Positions 1 through 31,222 of a stretch of 31,222 nucleotides of DNA are shown here, one piece after another. A program made the position numbers and the translations under genes. Below the pieces are notes generated by a model that was given only the letters and a program-made list of their open reading frames with translations, was not told the DNA's origin and made no database searches. Source of the stretch: a virus (taxonomy: Duplodnaviria; Caudoviricetes); the IMG/VR virus record IMGVR_UViG_3300030376_002532, positions 1-31,222 of that record. One strand, given 5' to 3'. The stretch's first letter is position 1, and the number at the start of each line of letters is the position of its first letter.

Positions 1-495
1 TTGTTCTGTTTTAGCAGACTTATATTTGAAATTGTGCTGCTCTTTTTTGTAATCCATCCATATTTTAATAGTTTCTTTAAATGTTGGAGTGTTAAAAGGA
101 TAAACTAAATCTTTATTTATTACATTATCATTTACACTTACATTAACATTATCATTTACATTAACATTTACATTAACAGCTTTTTTTGCTTTAGTTTGCT
201 TTTCTAAAAAACCATTTGCTTTTTTTGCTTTCTCTTGCTTTTTAGGTCGTCCACCTAATTTTCCAGCTTCTGACCTTTTGTTTTTAATATCCTCCCATTT
301 AAGTAAATCTCTTTTAAATTGCTGTTTAACAGGTTCAAAAGCTATTTCAAGAAGTAAATCATCAGTAGCTGGGTTTTCATCATTTACATAGGATAAAATG
401 TGTTTGAATAGCTTGCCAGCGTATTCATCAGAAAGCTTATCAACTGTTGCTTTTATGTCAGTGTATAATATGAATGATTTTTTGTCTTTAGCCAT
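1..495 (-). CDS. Replication initiator / replisome organizer, DUF6291-like N-terminus, allele A (3' part runs off the window start)
   Basis: Hand translation from ATG 495: MAKDKKSFILYTDIKATVDKLSDEYAGKLFKHILSYVNDENP...RSEAGKLGGRPKK...VNVNVNVNDNVNVSVNDNVINKDLVYPFNTPTFKETIKIWMDYKKEQHNFKYKSAKTEQ. Open to position 1 and homologous to 30517..31194. Missing from the ORF track because it has no stop in the window. Confidence 0.85.
   Translation of the reverse strand, partial: MAKDKKSFILYTDIKATVDKLSDEYAGKLFKHILSYVNDENPATDDLLLEIAFEPVKQQFKRDLLKWEDIKNKRSEAGKLGGRPKKQEKAKKANGFLEKQTKAKKAVNVNVNVNDNVNVSVNDNVINKDLVYPFNTPTFKETIKIWMDYKKEQHNFKYKSAKTEQ
117..241. repeat. Putative origin in initiator allele A: five TTGCTTT copies plus AT-rich hexamer repeats
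   Basis: TTGCTTT at 186, 196, 216, 225, 235 (about 10-bp phasing), adjacent to ATTTAC/ATTAAC/ATTATC hexamers at about 117-177. Resembles the ori-within-initiator layout of lambda O. Confidence 0.6.
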
Positions 496-751
496 TGTAT
501 CTTTCTTTGTGTACTTTGTTAAATGGTATTAAGACTAAATGCGCTTCTTCAAACCTTTCTCCACACTTAATGCAGTTTTTTATATATGGATTATCCTCAT
601 GACATTTAAACTCATGAATACAACATGGACTCCATGATTTGACTGTTTGCTTTGGGTTTGTTTGCTTGTTTGGAAAAGCCTCTTCTATGTCAATGATCTT
701 AAGCGGTTCATAAAATTTCTTAAGTTCTTCTGTTTTTGTTTTAAGTATCAT
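488..751 (-). CDS. Hypothetical protein with Cys/His (zinc-ribbon-like) motif
   Basis: CCIHEFKC...CIKCGE; its end overlaps the initiator start. Confidence 0.65.
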   Translation of the reverse strand: MILKTKTEELKKFYEPLKIIDIEEAFPNKQTNPKQTVKSWSPCCIHEFKCHEDNPYIKNCIKCGERFEEAHLVLIPFNKVHKERYNG

Positions 752-7406: not shown

Positions 7407-9632
7407 TTAACTAGGTACTGAAGTTGATTTTGCGTCTGCTCCCATACCGTAACTAACTGCATTTGCTGTACTGTAAGGTGCATCTCCTATAATATTATCA
7501 GCTCCTCCCATACCATCACTTAATCCATTTGCTGATGTACCAACTCCATTAACTATCGAATCTTCTGCTGGTGCTAAATTTGCTCCTGTTCCATTATTAG
7601 TTCCTTTCTCATCTAATACAGTCCACACATTAGAATCATAACTCATATTTTCTCCTAACTGCCACCAGCCAACTAAGTTTGAATAAGCACTATGATTATT
7701 TAGATTTGAGGGTTTACCTTGATTATAGATTTCTGTGACTTGTGTAGATGTTAAAGCTGCGTTCCATATAGAAACATTTGAAAGTTCTCCATTTATGGTG
7801 GTTGCACTACTAAACCATCCACCTATAATAACTTTTTTACTTGTTAAATCTAAAGTTTGACCTGATAATGTAAAAGAATGTACGGGAACACCGTCAAAAT
7901 ACACATTACAGTTTCCATTACCATTAAAAACACAAACAACATTAGTCCAACTATCTAGTGGAAATCCTGTTATATTGTTGTTTCCAAATGAGCCCCTAAA
8001 TCTCATTGTGGTGTTAGTATGCATATAAACGGTAAATTCACCAACCGTAGAACTAAAATCTCCAAATGTAAAGAAACCTTTACTCGAGTTACCTGTTGGA
8101 ATTTTAGCCCAAAATGAAACAGATAATTGAGACGTAGTTCCTAATGCATTTCCTAAACCTGTTCCACAATCTATATAATCACTACTTGCAGAATCAAAAT
8201 TTAAAGCGTACCTAGAATAAGGAGTAGTAATATTAAGATTAGATTGAACTAAGTTAGCAGCAGTCATACCGCTAGATGTTCCTGTATTTGAATTAGAACT
8301 ATCATCAGGAATTGACCAAGTGGTTGTTGATGAATCAAAAGTAGCAGAAGCATCTAGTTTCCACCAAGCTTGTAAAGAAGTAAAGCCACTCATATCGCTT
8401 AATGGTGTTCCATTATTGTAAAGCGTTTCTACAGAATTAGAACCTATTGCAGATAAAGCTGTGTTAAATATTTGAACATTTGAAAATAAAACATCAGTCG
8501 CTCCAGATAAATTATTACTACCTAATTTAATATTTTCAAAATTTAAATCTAAACTTGTGTCTGTACTATATCCACTTCCAAACCTATATGTAATAGCTTG
8601 TGATTGACCATCTATATATATAAATTTAGTTGAACCATCATAAACATAAGTCATATTATGCCATTCTCCGTCTTGGTAAGTAGTTACGCCTGTAGTTAAA
8701 GCAATGTGCTGCTTAACTCCTGTATAATTAGCAAACCAAGATAACCCAATATTTGCAACAAAAGAAGTTGCAGCTCCAATAGACATTGCAGAACTTGTAT
8801 TGCTTCCATAAAATAATCCCTGATACCCACTAGCAGTATCTGCTTTAAACCATATTGAAATTGTTTTAGGACCAGCAGGCGTTGAAAAAGAAGTATCAAT
8901 ATATTCATTGTAATCTCCTTTAAACACATAATCCTGTAGAGCTCCGTTAGGCACTAAATACTCTGAGCCGTTAAAAGCTGCATAGTCTCCTATTGGATAG
9001 TAAGCAACAGGTTTTCTACCTCCACTTATTGCCATTGGATTGCCTACACCATTAGTAGAGTTACCATATAATTCAGCTATTTGATTTACAGTTCCTCCTG
9101 TTCCATCTGTAAGAGCATAGTCAAAGATTGCTACGTGGTCTATTTTGCCATCAAAATAATTATTATTATATGCTCCTATATGAGTAGATGATGAAGCTCC
9201 ATAGGTAAGTGAATTTGTTTCAGGCTGACTATAAGGTGAGCTATTATTTATGTATAATTTTAAATTTTGCTTATCATAAGTTGCTACTACGTGAATCCAG
9301 TTATTTGTCGTTATTGTAAAACCAGCAGCTTGAACAAATTGCCAAGTAGAACCATAGCGAATATAAAAATAAAAATTATTGCTAATAACAGTTAATAAAT
9401 AACAACCAGTGTTTCCATTTCCATTTCCTGTAAATAATATTGCTCCATAACTTATTATATTTTTAAAGTTTACCCACGCACTAATACTTACAGCATTTAC
9501 TGGTTGTAAAATAACATCATTTCCACAGTCTATAAGTTCAGTCCCATCAAACTCCATAGAATAGTTTGACACTTTGCTACTGTTTGAGCTTTTAGGCATA
9601 CGCCAATTTCTATTGTAAAATTCTGTACTCAT
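7407..9632 (-). CDS. Multi-LamG (concanavalin A-like) tail / receptor-binding protein
   Basis: About three repeats of the pattern S(I/V)S(A/I/F)W...W(I/H/T)(H/N)..(T/V)(Y/F)...V.I(F/W)..AL; Gly/Ser/Asn-rich. Confidence 0.85.
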   Translation of the reverse strand: MSTEFYNRNWRMPKSSNSSKVSNYSMEFDGTELIDCGNDVILQPVNAVSISAWVNFKNIISYGAILFTGNGNGNTGCYLLTVISNNFYFYIRYGSTWQFVQAAGFTITTNNWIHVVATYDKQNLKLYINNSSPYSQPETNSLTYGASSSTHIGAYNNNYFDGKIDHVAIFDYALTDGTGGTVNQIAELYGNSTNGVGNPMAISGGRKPVAYYPIGDYAAFNGSEYLVPNGALQDYVFKGDYNEYIDTSFSTPAGPKTISIWFKADTASGYQGLFYGSNTSSAMSIGAATSFVANIGLSWFANYTGVKQHIALTTGVTTYQDGEWHNMTYVYDGSTKFIYIDGQSQAITYRFGSGYSTDTSLDLNFENIKLGSNNLSGATDVLFSNVQIFNTALSAIGSNSVETLYNNGTPLSDMSGFTSLQAWWKLDASATFDSSTTTWSIPDDSSNSNTGTSSGMTAANLVQSNLNITTPYSRYALNFDSASSDYIDCGTGLGNALGTTSQLSVSFWAKIPTGNSSKGFFTFGDFSSTVGEFTVYMHTNTTMRFRGSFGNNNITGFPLDSWTNVVCVFNGNGNCNVYFDGVPVHSFTLSGQTLDLTSKKVIIGGWFSSATTINGELSNVSIWNAALTSTQVTEIYNQGKPSNLNNHSAYSNLVGWWQLGENMSYDSNVWTVLDEKGTNNGTGANLAPAEDSIVNGVGTSANGLSDGMGGADNIIGDAPYSTANAVSYGMGADAKSTSVPS

Positions 9633-10625
9633 TTACTCTCCCATTTTATACCAAGCTACTAGGTTACTAGAACTTGCATTAGTTAAACTTGTTAATGAAT
9701 TTGGTTTACCTGAACCACTAGGCTGCTCGTTAAATATCTCTGTAACTGCATCACTGCTTAAAGCCGAATCCCATAGTGATACTTCATCTATGTTTCCTGC
9801 AAAATAATAACCTGTGAAACCATATTGAGCTTTAGCTATATTGAAATTTGTAGAAGCATATGCAGCTGGGCTTGCTGTTCCTGTTGCTACTGATGTATTA
9901 TCTATAAAAATTGCAGTATTAGTACCATCATAAGTAAAACAAAAATGATGCCAGTCACCAGCAACTATTGCTGGAATAGTACTGCCACTTGATAAGTCAT
10001 ATTGTGTAAGAGTATTATTAACGTAAAAATATAATTTTGCATTAAACATAAGAACTCTAAAGCCATTATTTCCAGCTGTATTAGAGTTACCTAAAATTCC
10101 ATCTATACCGTAAAATGGGCCAGGTGTATTATCATAATTTATCCATAAAGAAATACTAAATGCAGAAGTTAACTGTAAGTCAGTAGGATTACCTAAATCA
10201 AAATAGTCGTTTAGTCCATCAAAGCTAAATGACCTAGTAGATTGATAAGGTACTGCTGTTACGCCTACTGTTTGTCCGCTTTGCACTCCATCAACAGTAT
10301 ATGTAATAATATGACTATCAATAGTAGAAGCAGATAAATCTATTTGACCTGTTGAACTATTGAAAGTTCCTGTATCTACAAAGACTAAACCAGCAGAAGC
10401 ATTAAAAGAACCTCCAGCAGTTCCTGTGATAGTTGGAGTAGGGTCTGCTTCTCCTTGATTATAAGAACTAGCTGAATAACTAAAAGCAGCACTTGTTCCT
10501 ACTATTGCTGTTTCTCCAGCGTAGCTTTCAGCATATATAGAAGCAGCACCAATAGTGTTTTGATATTTACCAAAACCGTTATCATTGTTCTGCGTTGCCT
10601 TACCCCATCCTATTGTGTTTGCCAT
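9633..10625 (-). CDS. LamG-domain virion protein
   Basis: SFSFDGLNDY...FSISLW...WHHFCFTYDG...GNIDEVSLWDSALS...LVAWYKMGE. Confidence 0.85.
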   Translation of the reverse strand: MANTIGWGKATQNNDNGFGKYQNTIGAASIYAESYAGETAIVGTSAAFSYSASSYNQGEADPTPTITGTAGGSFNASAGLVFVDTGTFNSSTGQIDLSASTIDSHIITYTVDGVQSGQTVGVTAVPYQSTRSFSFDGLNDYFDLGNPTDLQLTSAFSISLWINYDNTPGPFYGIDGILGNSNTAGNNGFRVLMFNAKLYFYVNNTLTQYDLSSGSTIPAIVAGDWHHFCFTYDGTNTAIFIDNTSVATGTASPAAYASTNFNIAKAQYGFTGYYFAGNIDEVSLWDSALSSDAVTEIFNEQPSGSGKPNSLTSLTNASSSNLVAWYKMGE

Positions 10626-11143: not shown

Positions 11144-11533
11144 TTATATTTTAAATTTTCTTAATTTACTTTCTGCTGTTTGAAATTTTATTTGATAATC
11201 TTCAATTTCTTGTGCTGCTTTTGTTAAATTTTTACCAGCAGTAGTTTTTCTTATATCAACACCTAATTCTTTACCTATTTTATCAATTCTTGCAAACATC
11301 TTATCAACTTCTCCACTTAATTTGTTTAATTTTTTTAAACCATCATTCATTTTAAATGCTCCACTTAAAATATCATCTGCTGCATCTTTTTTAGAATTAT
11401 TGTAAATTTTTTCAGCTTTTATCATAAAATCTCTAGCTTCTTTTTCAGCATTTAACTCTATTCTTTCTGCACTTAACTCTACACTCTCATTATGTAGGTT
11501 TAACTTTTTATATATTCTTTCTTGTGTTGTCAT
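11144..11533 (-). CDS. Putative internal head (cargo) protein 3, paralog family
   Basis: MTTQERIYKKLN leader, VELS/IELN, KELGVD motif; helical. Confidence 0.7.
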   Translation of the reverse strand: MTTQERIYKKLNLHNESVELSAERIELNAEKEARDFMIKAEKIYNNSKKDAADDILSGAFKMNDGLKKLNKLSGEVDKMFARIDKIGKELGVDIRKTTAGKNLTKAAQEIEDYQIKFQTAESKLRKFKI

Positions 11534-12259
11534 TATTTAAATTGTTTTTATAAATTGTTTTATATTTTTTAAAACAGGTTTATATTCTTTTGCATCTTTT
11601 ACAGCAATTTTTGCATCTTTTAATTCTTCTACTCTATTCTCATCAACACCTAATTCTTTTGTTATTTTCTGTACTTTAGAAATTAGTGCTTCCATTTTAT
11701 TAGCTGCTTTTAATGCTTCTTCTATTTTAGTTTCTGCACTTTTTGCTTCACTTAATAAACCTTTAATTTTAGAATTAGCAGTATCAGTATTCCTATAATA
11801 AAGTGTATTTAATTTTTTTAAATCATCAACAACACTTAACTCTACTCTATGCGCTTCCAATTCTACCTTGTTAATGCTGTTCAGTTTGCTATATATTCTT
11901 TCTTGTGTTGTCATTATAATTTATTTTTAATATATTCCACTTAATATTTTATCAATAGACTTAATGTTTTCATTAACTTGAGATTCAAATTTTTCAATCT
12001 GTTTCAAAGCATTTGAAGCACCTAATTCTTTTGCAATTTTTTTAGATTTTGCAATTTTTTTAAATAAACTTTTATTAAGTTTTAATGAGTTTTCAAGTGG
12101 TTTTTTAGCTGCTTCTATCATGTCAATTCCTCTAATTGCTCCTTTATTGGCTGCTGCCATTTCTTTTTTTATGTCATCAATTGCACCTAATTCAATCTTA
12201 TGAGCTTCCAATTCTACCTTGTTAATGCTGTTCAGTTTGCTATATATTCTTTCTTGTGT
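11509..12259. repeat. Direct repeats at the 5' ends of the three paralogs
   Basis: 56 nt identical at 11853-11908 and 12204-12259; 28 nt identical at 11509-11536 and 11890-11917. Confidence 0.9.
11537..11914 (-). CDS. Putative internal head (cargo) protein 2, paralog family
   Basis: MTTQERIYSKLN leader, VELE/VELS, KELGVD motif. Confidence 0.7.
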   Translation of the reverse strand: MTTQERIYSKLNSINKVELEAHRVELSVVDDLKKLNTLYYRNTDTANSKIKGLLSEAKSAETKIEEALKAANKMEALISKVQKITKELGVDENRVEELKDAKIAVKDAKEYKPVLKNIKQFIKTI

Positions 12260-12265
12260 ATTCAT
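11927..12265 (-). CDS. Putative internal head (cargo) protein 1, paralog family
   Basis: MNTQERIYSKLN leader, VELE/IELG, KELGA motif. Confidence 0.7.
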   Translation of the reverse strand: MNTQERIYSKLNSINKVELEAHKIELGAIDDIKKEMAAANKGAIRGIDMIEAAKKPLENSLKLNKSLFKKIAKSKKIAKELGASNALKQIEKFESQVNENIKSIDKILSGIY

Positions 12266-29059: not shown

Positions 29060-29152
29060 TTATTGTTTAATAATTTGAAACACCTTACAAATACATATCC
29101 CAAGTGCTATTGCTGCAACATGGGATATTATTAAATAATTATAGAAGTCCAT
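29060..29152 (-). CDS. Small membrane peptide (30 aa, not in ORF track)
   Basis: MDFYNYLIISHVAAIALGICICKVFQIIKQ; TAATG overlap with the methyltransferase stop. Confidence 0.55.
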   Translation of the reverse strand: MDFYNYLIISHVAAIALGICICKVFQIIKQ

Positions 29153-29781
29153 TAAAATATTCTTAATTGTTGTTTATGTTGTGTTATTCTTTTCATGGCC
29201 GCGTTGTAATAATCTTTGTCTAGTTCACAAGCAGTTAAATCATAACCTAAATTGTGACAAGCAATAGCTATTGAGCCACTTCCAAGATGTGTGTCAAGTA
29301 TTTTATCTCCTTCTTTCGCAAAGTTCATCAAACAATAATCATATAGTTGAGGTGGTTTTTGTGTTGGATGAAATTTCTCGCTTTTGTTTCTATATGCACT
29401 ATATCTAAACATATTATTTGCACCTTTAAAAGAAGTCCAAGCATATTCACAATCACTAAAACTCAAACCTTTTGGTATTTCTTTATCCCATATAATAAAC
29501 TTTCCACAAGGAGGTAAATCAAAATAATTACCCCCCCAAATTATTTGATTTTTACTTACTCTAAACAATTCTTTAAAATACTGCTCACTTGGTATATCAC
29601 TATCCCAATCTTTAGCTTTCCATTTTCTATTTTTAGCTTTACTTGCTTTTGGCGTGTTACCTATTCCCATATTCATATTAGCAATATCTATTCCATAAGG
29701 AGGGTCTACTATAGCAAGGTTAAAGTAGTTATCTTCATACCTTGACATTAAAGCTATATTATCTTCATTGGATATATTCAT
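29152..29781 (-). CDS. Orphan DNA N6/N4 methyltransferase (beta class)
   Basis: DPPY, HPTQKP, ILDTHLGSGS motifs; no cognate restriction enzyme in the window. Confidence 0.92.
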   Translation of the reverse strand: MNISNEDNIALMSRYEDNYFNLAIVDPPYGIDIANMNMGIGNTPKASKAKNRKWKAKDWDSDIPSEQYFKELFRVSKNQIIWGGNYFDLPPCGKFIIWDKEIPKGLSFSDCEYAWTSFKGANNMFRYSAYRNKSEKFHPTQKPPQLYDYCLMNFAKEGDKILDTHLGSGSIAIACHNLGYDLTACELDKDYYNAAMKRITQHKQQLRIF

Positions 29782-30116
29782 TAGAATGGCAAATCAGTTT
29801 CTTCTCCTACTGGATTAAGCTCTTTTTCTGTTTCTTGGTCTAGCTTTTGAATTCTCCAGCAGTCAATACTTGTGTAGTATTTATTATTCCATTCATTAGA
29901 ACTTGCATTGATATGAAATTCATAAACATGCTCTAGTTCAAGTCTTTTAGTTAAATCTATATTGTCTTGGTGAAATTCAATACATAGTGCTGATTTATAG
30001 TTTTTGTTTTGGTCTATAATAACTTCACATTTATTAAATTCCTTTTTTGTTTTTTCGTTTGTAAAGGTTTGTACTTTATTTATTTTCTTTACTGTTCCTA
30101 CTATTATTGTGTTCAT
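29781..30116 (-). CDS. ssDNA-binding protein (DUF3127-like)
   Basis: OB-fold-like pattern EWNNKYYTSIDCWRI; acidic C-terminus ending DLPF. Confidence 0.8.
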   Translation of the reverse strand: MNTIIVGTVKKINKVQTFTNEKTKKEFNKCEVIIDQNKNYKSALCIEFHQDNIDLTKRLELEHVYEFHINASSNEWNNKYYTSIDCWRIQKLDQETEKELNPVGEETDLPF

Positions 30117-30134: not shown

Positions 30135-30590
30135 TTAAAATTGTTTATGTTCTTGGTGTTGTCTCATTGTTATTTCTGCTCCTAGATTCATTCGTTCGTT
30201 TAAATGGTCTCTGAATATTGATAACAGTTTTGGAGGATTAAGGGATTGATAAAGGTTTCCGCATTTACCAATTGCAATGTTTTTAAATACTAGCTTTAAA
30301 TCTGATATGTTAAGCATGTAAAATTCTTCTAGTATTACTCCAGCAGTAAAATTTATTTGTGCTTCATTCATTGGTTTGCTTAGGTTTAATAGTTCGTTTA
30401 GTTCTATTAGTTGTAGTTTAATGAAGCTCAAAGTCTTTTCTTCTCCCTCATCTTTTCTAATCTTAGCAAGTGAAGGCAGTCTGCTTAATATGCAGTCTTC
30501 AATCTTAACAATAGGTTTATTGCTTGATATTATTAATGAGTTGTCTTTTGAGTTCTTCATTATATTGTACTTGGTTGTTTTTATTTCCAT
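30135..30590 (-). CDS. Putative helicase loader / initiator partner
   Basis: Directly downstream of the initiator (lambda P position). Start uncertain (30632, 30590 or 30560). Confidence 0.5.
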   Translation of the reverse strand: MEIKTTKYNIMKNSKDNSLIISSNKPIVKIEDCILSRLPSLAKIRKDEGEEKTLSFIKLQLIELNELLNLSKPMNEAQINFTAGVILEEFYMLNISDLKLVFKNIAIGKCGNLYQSLNPPKLLSIFRDHLNERMNLGAEITMRQHQEHKQF

Positions 30591-31194
30591 TTGTTCTAGG
30601 GGTTTGAGGTTTAAATACACCTTTATATCCATTAGCCATTGAATAATGAATTGCTTCTGTTGCTTGGTGTTCTGTTGTAAAATCTTTTGATAGTTGCTTT
30701 AAAAAAGCTTGTTCTGTTTTAGCAGACTTATATTTAAAATTGTGCTGTTCTTTTTTGTAATCCATCCATATCTTAATGGTTTCTTTAAATGTTGGAGTGT
30801 TAAAAGGATAAACTAACTTTTCTTTTTTACTTTTTTCTTTTATTATTATATCACTATCATTAACCCTTCCACTATCACTATCACTATCACTATCGGCATG
30901 TTTGGTATCGTTTGGCATGCGGTCGGATGCGGTCGCATTCTTTTTATACCATCGCTTACGTGCGTTTTCTGAGTTTTTCTCACATAAAGCAACGTATTTT
31001 TTAAGGTCTCTTTTAAATGTTTGCTGTATTGGTGCAAATGCTACTTTAAGAAGTAAATCATCAATTACAGGGTTTTCATCATTTACGTAAGCAAATATTA
31101 ATTTAATGAGTTGTCCAGCTTTATCATCAGGTAACTGATTAAACAGTGCTTGCTGGTCGCAGTATAATATGAATGATTTTTTGTCTTTAGCCAT
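30517..31194 (-). CDS. Replication initiator / replisome organizer, DUF6291-like, allele B
   Basis: MAKDKKSFILYCD...AGQLIKLIFAY N-domain, DSDSDS linker, C-domain WMDYKKEQ...IHYSMANGYKGVF. Confidence 0.85.
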   Translation of the reverse strand: MAKDKKSFILYCDQQALFNQLPDDKAGQLIKLIFAYVNDENPVIDDLLLKVAFAPIQQTFKRDLKKYVALCEKNSENARKRWYKKNATASDRMPNDTKHADSDSDSDSGRVNDSDIIIKEKSKKEKLVYPFNTPTFKETIKIWMDYKKEQHNFKYKSAKTEQAFLKQLSKDFTTEHQATEAIHYSMANGYKGVFKPQTPRTNGNKNNQVQYNEELKRQLINNIKQ

Positions 31195-31222
31195 TGTATC
31201 TTTCTTTGTGTACTTTGTTAAA
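30709..31222. repeat. Imperfect terminal repeat of 1..523
   Basis: 1-27 identical to 30709-30735; 463-523 identical to 31162-31222; middle divergent; copy A is 9 nt longer. Confidence 0.9.
30871..30938. repeat. Putative origin in initiator allele B
   Basis: ACTATC x4 (30871-30894), then GGCAT/GGTAT/GGCAT/CGGAT/CGCAT at about 10-bp period; ATGCGGTCG at 30917 and 30927. Confidence 0.6.

What the first reader, a model, noticed from the sequence alone, without database searches (positions are those of the whole stretch)
1..523. Two different alleles of the replication initiator at the two ends of the genome
Seen: 1..523 and 30709..31222 share identical edges (27 nt and 61 nt) and an identical C-terminal protein segment (LVYPFNTPTFKETIKIWMDY...), with synonymous differences there. 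Between them the N-domain diverges, the basic helix differs (RSEAGKLGGRPKK vs NSENARKRWYKK) and the linker differs (VNVNDN vs DSDSDS). Both frames are intact. Inference: a circular genome of about 30.7 kb whose population carries interchangeable replication-specificity cassettes, unrolled from an assembly bubble. A terminally heterozygous recombinant is a less likely alternative.
Basis: partly seen in the sequence, partly recalled or inferred. Interest (0 to 1): 0.75.

Follow-up and report, generated by a model that had tools for sequence, protein, structure and literature searches.

The report
Swappable initiator-origin alleles in marine phage
The two ends of this marine phage contig are two coexisting versions of the front half of one gene, each found alone in other sequencing data sets; each version likely pairs a DNA-binding helix with its own short DNA repeats that likely form the replication origin, a known kind of swap seen here in an unstudied protein family.

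Summary
The window is a circular ~30.7 kb Bacteroidota-type temperate phage genome unrolled at an assembly bubble. Allele A sits single-copy between both flanks in an independent 97%-identical contig (L150); a contig of run X1 joins both flanks over exactly allele B's length with B's SNPs; run X3 holds both arms at depths 6.8 + 5.3 beside a flank of 11.3. The true cassette is 109-462 / 30817-31161; the 27-nt edge is only a contig end. Each allele carries, just behind its basic helix, its own array of ~10-bp-spaced repeats (AAGCAA x5; CGACCGCAT x2 plus ATRCCRA x3) that exceed synonymous expectation, then an AT-rich linker. Twenty-one proteins with this C-terminal domain carry six such types. 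The DUF6291 gene precedes a DnaB helicase in 16 of 37 relatives. Best reading: an initiator with its origin inside, whose helix-plus-iteron half is swapped, as in lambda O and PLE RepA. Binding and origin activity are untested. A helix-to-repeat code fits 34 of 35 relatives but is not phylogenetically independent. This scan noted in-gene origins before on other DNA.

The parts
1..495 (-). Allele A of the DUF6291 gene, first 165 codons (cut by the contig start; continues in 30517-30708 on the circle)
   Evidence: full 228-aa form in L150
109..462 (-). Allele-A-specific cassette (354 nt): N-domain codons 12-84, repeat array, linker
244..285 (-). End of the long basic helix of A (KRSEAGKLGGRP), candidate recognition element
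   Evidence: helix 47-79 in model; role inferred
172..243 (-). Repeat array A: AAGCAA at 235, 225, 216, 196, 186 (about 10-bp spacing, two reading frames); candidate iterons
109..171 (-). AT-rich microsatellite linker A (83% AT, top 1.5% of 60-nt windows); candidate unwinding element
   Evidence: role inferred
1..108 (-). Shared C-terminal segment, copy at left end (27-nt identical edge, four synonymous SNPs, 38-nt identical block 71-108)
463..523 (-). Shared 61-nt edge (start codon and upstream), left copy
30517..31194 (-). Allele B of the DUF6291 gene, complete, 225 aa
30817..31161 (-). Allele-B-specific cassette (345 nt)
   Evidence: length equals the gap in the X1 contig
30949..30990 (-). 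End of the basic helix of B (KNSENARKRW), candidate recognition element
   Evidence: role inferred
30889..30948 (-). Repeat array B: CGACCGCAT at 30927 and 30917, ATRCCRA at 30912, 30902, 30893; candidate iterons
30817..30888 (-). Linker B, moderately AT-rich (77%, top 10% of 60-nt windows)
30709..30816 (-). Shared C-terminal segment, copy at right end
31162..31222 (-). Shared 61-nt edge, right copy
30135..30632 (-). Downstream partner gene, DUF6633-like (likely start 30560, 141 aa); sits where relatives have a helicase or loader
   Evidence: (atlas 0.96); function not shown
29781..30116 (-). DUF3127 / single-strand DNA binding protein
   Evidence: phrog_4932, 6e-19

Best explanation
The contig is one circular phage genome of about 30.7 kb cut open where the population carries two alleles of the 5' half of a DUF6291 gene, and each allele likely is a self-contained replication-specificity unit: a helix predicted to bind DNA plus its own short repeats that likely form the origin. 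Shown: the two alleles, single-copy linkage to the shared flanks in other data sets, repeats constrained as DNA, repeated exchange of this half on one C-terminal domain. Inferred: the protein is the initiator; the end of its long basic helix reads the ~10-bp-spaced repeats encoded directly behind it; the AT-rich microsatellite melts; the unchanged C-terminal domain recruits the downstream DUF6633 protein and the host helicase. Because helix and sites are adjacent DNA, one recombination event between short shared edges would replace both and leave a working replicon. Genome sizes: 30,708 nt with A, 30,699 nt with B.
For: Linkage: L150 carries A once between both flanks at about 97%; X11 contig covers 1-835 with 18 differences; X1 contig matches 1-108 with 4 differences and 463-1600 with none, 345 nt apart; X2 shows B's letters behind 108; X3 arms 6.78 and 5.26 vs flank 11.3; L154 breaks at 30735. 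Swapping: 21 of 23 proteins with this C-domain (2 N-truncated dropped) carry six types (A 8, F 5, B 4, E 2, C 1, G 1); 10 label changes vs 11.6 shuffled; identical C-domains with F and A. Repeats: AAGCAA x5 reached in 16 of 10,000 synonymous re-encodings, CGACCGCAT x2 in 1, ATRCCRA x3 in 27; 30 of 39 arrays at p<=0.05; unit density 6.7 vs 1.2 per 100 nt, spacing 9-11 nt in 71 of 131 vs 7 of 129 outside; the clusters are unique in the window; the stretch after the array is the most AT-rich part in 34 of 38 genes. Initiator role: next gene is a DnaB-type helicase in 16 of 37 relatives, a DnaC-like protein in Cellulophaga phi19:3 and phi13:2, a primase/helicase in Flavobacterium elemo phage; phrog_678 'replication initiation O-like' 6.8e-7 and phrog_6451 1.5e-9; two folded domains with a disordered middle over the array.
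Against: No binding, origin or replication assay exists. The motifs were picked after looking at the data, so the p-values are optimistic; 9 of 39 arrays did not reach p<=0.05. Independent-pair tests of helix vs repeat gave only 3 and 1 pairs (p 0.25 and 1), and adjacent DNA is co-inherited anyway. In X1 the depth sum does not work: the B contig runs through the flank at 13.5, exact-A pieces are 4.4-6.7 with no link shown, and a second A-type lineage (8-13% different, depth 14-16) has its own flank. L151 carries B with a different upstream sequence. Nothing was laid on the right end, and contigs cannot show single molecules. The window's own partner gene matches no helicase or loader family.
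Confidence: 0.75

Rival explanations
1. The two alleles are real but functionally equivalent: old polymorphism in a disordered linker, the repeats made by slippage, with no difference in origin specificity.
For: No functional data; the region is predicted disordered; helix-repeat association is not independent of descent; microsatellite length varies freely among relatives.
Against: Repeat units keep about 10-bp phase across reading frames and exceed synonymous expectation; the A array is nearly unchanged in phages with unrelated C-domains (L035, L089, L090); each helix type keeps its own unit, also in 36 loci fetched later.
Confidence: 0.12
2. The protein binds its own repeats as an autoregulatory operator or roadblock; the origin lies elsewhere.
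For: Sequence alone cannot tell an operator from an origin; the GC skew shows no turn that would place an origin.
Against: Position directly before a helicase or loader in relatives; array in mid-gene followed by an AT-rich stretch, as in lambda O (PMC7466680 passages).
Confidence: 0.06
3. Chimera: allele A belongs only to a different phage and was joined to this genome by the assembler.
For: X1 holds an A-type lineage with a divergent flank resembling L155, and no listed X1 contig joins exact A to the flank.
Against: L150 has A with both flanks at about 97%; X11 and X3 join A to the upstream flank; a 17-member cluster has A on this C-domain.
Confidence: 0.04
4. Both copies lie in one molecule (heterozygous terminal repeat or tandem duplication).
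For: Short-read contigs cannot exclude it for the source sample.
Against: Every contig that spans the locus has one copy (L150, L001, X1 contig); the contig ends fall 27 and 61 nt outside branch points, and another assembly breaks at the same base (L154).
Confidence: 0.03

Closest known systems
Phage lambda O protein with ori-lambda inside gene O (and Stx phage variants)
   Same: Initiator gene with repeats in its middle, then an AT-rich stretch; N-terminal DNA-binding and C-terminal partner-binding domains joined by a flexible linker; partner gene next (passages of PMC3349717, PMC7466680, PMC6022878). Exchange of N-domain plus ori among lambda, phi80 and 82 is recalled, not read here.
   Different: Lambda iterons are 18-19 bp inverted repeats; here units are 6-9 nt at about 10-bp spacing. 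No Pfam lambda-O family hit; the modelled N-domain is three helices with no strand; partner is DUF6633-like, not P.
Vibrio cholerae PLE RepA / ori modules (Barth et al. 2021, PMC8263062)
   Same: DNA-binding N-domain and origin covary while the C-terminal domain is shared; repeated swaps inferred from cross-clustering; there, replication needs cognate pairs and an origin-cutting phage nuclease is the proposed driver (passages).
   Different: PLE ori is intergenic, iterons about 30 bp, RepA_N family, two types, a satellite. Here the array is inside the gene, at least six types ride one C-domain, and both alleles occur in the same samples.
DUF6291 (PF19808) proteins of cultured Bacteroidota phages (Cellulophaga phi19:3, phi13:2; Olleya Harreka_1; Flavobacterium elemo)
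   Same: Same N-domain (48-56% identity), same place before a loader or primase/helicase; some are annotated 'replication protein'; three carry the type-F helix and repeat peptide.
   Different: Other C-domains and other helix/repeat types; no paper in the library names DUF6291.

Membership tests
DUF6291 (PF19808) | HMM score above the curated cut-off | tested here: met
   80.3 and 89.7 bits vs 27.2, residues 7-85, both alleles
Lambda O-type initiator with internal origin (works like) | Repeated DNA sites in the middle of the initiator gene | tested here: met
Lambda O-type initiator with internal origin (works like) | AT-rich stretch next to the repeats | tested here: met
   A 83% (top 1.5%), B 77% (top 10%, weaker); 34 of 38 relatives
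Lambda O-type initiator with internal origin (works like) | [quoted passage not shown] | tested here: met
   pLDDT under 50 at 89-127 between two folded parts
Lambda O-type initiator with internal origin (works like) | Helicase or helicase-loader gene directly downstream | tested here: inconclusive
   16 of 37 relatives DnaB-type, DnaC-like in two cultured phages; the window's own partner is DUF6633-like, function unknown
Lambda O-type initiator with internal origin (works like) | Protein binds its repeats and the site starts replication | not testable with these tools
   needs binding and mini-replicon assays
Lambda O protein family (member) | Sequence match to the lambda O N-terminal family | tested here: not met
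   no such Pfam family among 24 members at E<=1; only phrog_678 over residues 74-211 at 6.8e-7
Lambda O protein family (member) | 18-19 bp inverted-repeat iterons | tested here: not met
   units of 6-9 nt at 9-10 nt spacing
Lambda O protein family (member) | Fold match to solved initiator domains | tested here: inconclusive
   C-domain barely tested
PLE RepA-type swappable replicon | N-domain and sites covary while the C-domain is shared | tested here: met
PLE RepA-type swappable replicon | RepA_N domain and intergenic origin | tested here: not met
   DUF6291, array inside the gene
PLE RepA-type swappable replicon | Replication only with cognate initiator-origin pairs | not testable with these tools
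   needs cross-complementation

The most novel reading that the evidence does not exclude
DUF6291 is a large unstudied initiator family in which one short basic helix reads its own in-gene 5-base unit by a two-position code (GGRP vs KRW sets AA vs AT; Asn vs Ser/Ala sets C vs G: AAAGC, AAACC, ATRGC, ATRCC), with at least seven types shuffled as ~350-nt or smaller cassettes and held side by side in wild marine phage populations by balancing selection (escape from origin competition with resident prophages or from origin-directed attack).
Probability: 0.3. Interest if true: 0.75.

Novelty: new variant of a known kind. Interest (0 to 1): 0.5.

Why it matters
It gives a function and a testable anatomy to DUF6291, which no paper in the library names, and shows origin-specificity alleles segregating inside one wild phage population across studies of 2014, 2019 and 2025 rather than only between isolates. 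If the helix-repeat pairing is a code, origin specificity could be read from sequence across a large family, and cultured Cellulophaga, Olleya and Flavobacterium phages make it testable. The basic layout and the swapping are textbook, which caps the surprise.

Tried and rejected
Foldseek on PDB for the initiator and the partner model: no match at E<=0.001. VIA-align wide for the initiator: best Z 7.0 to unrelated helical proteins, N-domain only; not run for the partner. BFVD: DUF6291 proteins on top, replisome-organizer and DnaD-domain entries only at E 0.015-0.17. Profile of A2 against PDB sequences: 2 chance hits. Atlas on the C-domain: Phg_2220_C 0.85-0.87, DnaB_2 0.82, leads only. DNA patterns from the shared edges in viral contigs: 4 stretches with no similarity to the window and 0. 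C-domain in viral contigs: 0 of 29 candidates. GC skew: no turn. Independent-pair test of the code: 3 and 1 pairs, not significant. Held-out check on 36 genome loci: 12 helices not parsed, 5 of 5 N-G..GGRP helices had AAACC (majority unit in 4), 2 of 3 B-like had ATGCC, the rest were other types outside the two-position scheme, so the scheme does not cover the family. The idea that the 27-nt edge is a breakpoint was rejected. The 157-aa members of cluster 3 are a different neighbouring gene, not broken initiators. Sequence look-up in earlier scan notes: nothing. PMC12379486 (12 passages) and PMC9836094 (1 passage) showed nothing on initiator alleles.

Full report
Observation. Allele B is a complete 225-aa gene; allele A is cut after 165 codons by the contig start. 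Both score far above the DUF6291 cut-off. The rest of the window is a phage genome with terminase, portal, capsid-like protein, amidase, integrase and repressor-like genes. G000 is this one contig. Relatives lie in Bacteroidota genomes (most of 36 loci) and cultured Flavobacteriia phages; the runs laid are marine metagenomes.

Bubble test. Four of 21 listed runs were laid on 1-1600 (contigs only). In X1 one 1793-nt contig (depth 13.5) matches 463-1600 with no difference and 1-108 with four, 345 nt apart, which is the length of B's core: B is single-copy between both flanks. Exact-A pieces in X1 have depth 4.4-6.7 with no link listed, and a second A-type lineage (depth 14-16, 8-13% different, sharing 258 and 463 changes with L155) has its own flank, so the depth sum fails there. 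In X3 an A contig (79-498, 7 differences, depth 6.78) and a contig with the same joints as B (depth 5.26, anchors of 30 and 36 nt, interior not shown) sum to 12.0 beside a flank of 11.3. X11 joins A to the upstream flank (1-835, 18 differences); X2 shows B's letters behind 108. Nothing was laid on the right end. Six metagenome contigs share the C-domain (6 of 152 candidates). L150 carries A once, with 1-1784 at 96.7% and the downstream genes. L151 carries B with the same downstream flank but other upstream sequence. L154 is 99.96% identical over 5.2 kb and starts at 30735, the base before the first difference. L001, a 73% relative, spans the junction with one B-type gene. The circle is 30,708 nt with A or 30,699 nt with B. 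The four C-terminal SNPs do not follow the allele, so the cassette is 109-462 / 30817-31161.

More alleles. Of 23 proteins found with the C-domain, 21 were full length; they carry six helix/repeat types (A 8, F 5, B 4, E 2, C 1, G 1; labels are mine). On the C-domain tree the labels need 10 changes against 11.6 shuffled (33 of 200 as low), only 2 of 16 branches are starred, but identical or near-identical C-domains carry different types (P0016/17 F vs P0018 A; P0001 B vs P0002 A; P0005 B vs P0007 A). A/F pairs share the N-domain, so breakpoints vary and the smallest unit is helix end plus repeats. Conversely the A segment sits on unrelated C-domains (L035, L089, L090).

What the cassette holds. 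Behind the helix each allele has a repeat array: A has AAGCAA at five places about 10 nt apart in two frames; B has CGACCGCAT twice (the first within the inverted repeat ATGCG..CGCAT) and ATRCCRA three times. Synonymous re-encoding reached these counts in 16, 1 and 27 of 10,000 draws; 30 of 39 arrays (37 representatives and the two alleles) gave p<=0.05, motifs chosen after inspection. In 37 of 40 representatives (3 unparsed or unclassified dropped) the generic unit is 6.7 per 100 nt in the array vs 1.2 outside, and 71 of 131 spacings are 9-11 nt vs 7 of 129. The following microsatellite is the most AT-rich part of the gene in 34 of 38. GGRP vs RW helix ends go with AA vs AT in 34 of 35, Asn vs Ser/Ala with C vs G in 34 of 35, but independent pairs number 3 and 1, and 36 later loci show further types outside this scheme.

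Is it an initiator? The model has a helical N-domain ending in a long helix (47-79), disorder over array and linker (89-127) and a three-helix C-domain; fold searches named no solved relative. The next gene is a DnaB-type helicase in 16 of 37 relatives (37 of 39 had a parsed neighbour), DnaC-like in phi19:3 and phi13:2, a primase/helicase in an elemo phage; 2 of 36 full-length relatives carry Phg_2220_C; PHROG hits are 'replication initiation O-like' and 'primosomal protein'. In the window the partner is DUF6633-like, followed by an SSB. The initiator role is therefore inferred from context, strongly but indirectly.

Mechanism. Most likely the helix end binds the phased repeats encoded right behind it, the AT-rich linker opens, and the constant C-domain recruits the partner and helicase (all inferred). 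Helix and sites being adjacent, one recombination between short shared edges swaps specificity without breaking the replicon. Why both alleles persist is open; competition at origins with resident prophages (iteron-dependent inhibition is described for lambda, PMC3349717 passages) or origin-directed attack (PLE, PMC8263062 passages) are candidates.

Comparison. It works like lambda O with its internal ori (PMC3349717, PMC7466680, PMC6022878; passages only) and like the swapped RepA_N/ori modules of PLE, but is a member of neither family. N-domain-plus-ori exchange among lambdoid phages is recalled. Searches for DUF6291 and DUF6633 found no paper; some searches were seen as listings and showed no report of this family's alleles; supplements were not read, and subscription papers are not covered. 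Earlier scan notes describe in-gene origins and swaps on other DNA; I did not test them.

Verdict. Real alleles, artefactual linear arrangement, known kind of system in an undescribed family, with a bold but unproven recognition code. New variant of a known kind; interest 0.5.

Noticed in passing
window 11144-12265 (-): Three tandem paralogous genes (129, 125, 112 aa) that all begin M[TN]TQERIY, between the portal and the head-connector-like gene; shared 5' DNA (D4, D5, D11); almost no PHROG match.
   Followed up: no
L150 2370-2600 and 2953-3127 vs window 29152-29781: The 97%-identical relative lacks the N6/N4 methylase gene and has an extra 76-aa gene between the DUF6633-like gene and the SSB: further accessory variation next to the cassette.
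   Followed up: partly
L151 1-88: Allele B with the same downstream flank but unrelated upstream sequence: a second breakpoint at the start codon.
   Followed up: partly
L155 / run X1, window 15-571: A sister lineage about 78% identical upstream but 91-93% in the A core co-occurs in X1; it also has both A and B types at protein level (P0007, P0005).
   Followed up: partly
L156, L162, L171, L189; L176-L178, L184, L186, L187; L157, L160, L168, L193-L195: Further helix/repeat types: GG[ILK]-ending helix with ACGAAGCAAA units; GNLKRW plus a helical insert with ATCGCA units; AGKASAE with STN/TNPT peptide repeats.
   Followed up: partly
cluster 3 (P0061, P0063-P0065, P0068, P0072): A 157-aa protein, the upstream neighbour of the initiator in L001, is filed in the same 90% cluster as P0009 although unrelated in sequence; looks like a database clustering error.
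   Followed up: no
window 7407-10625 (-): Two long genes (741 and 330 aa) with internal repeats about 700 nt apart, likely tail/receptor-binding proteins.
   Followed up: no
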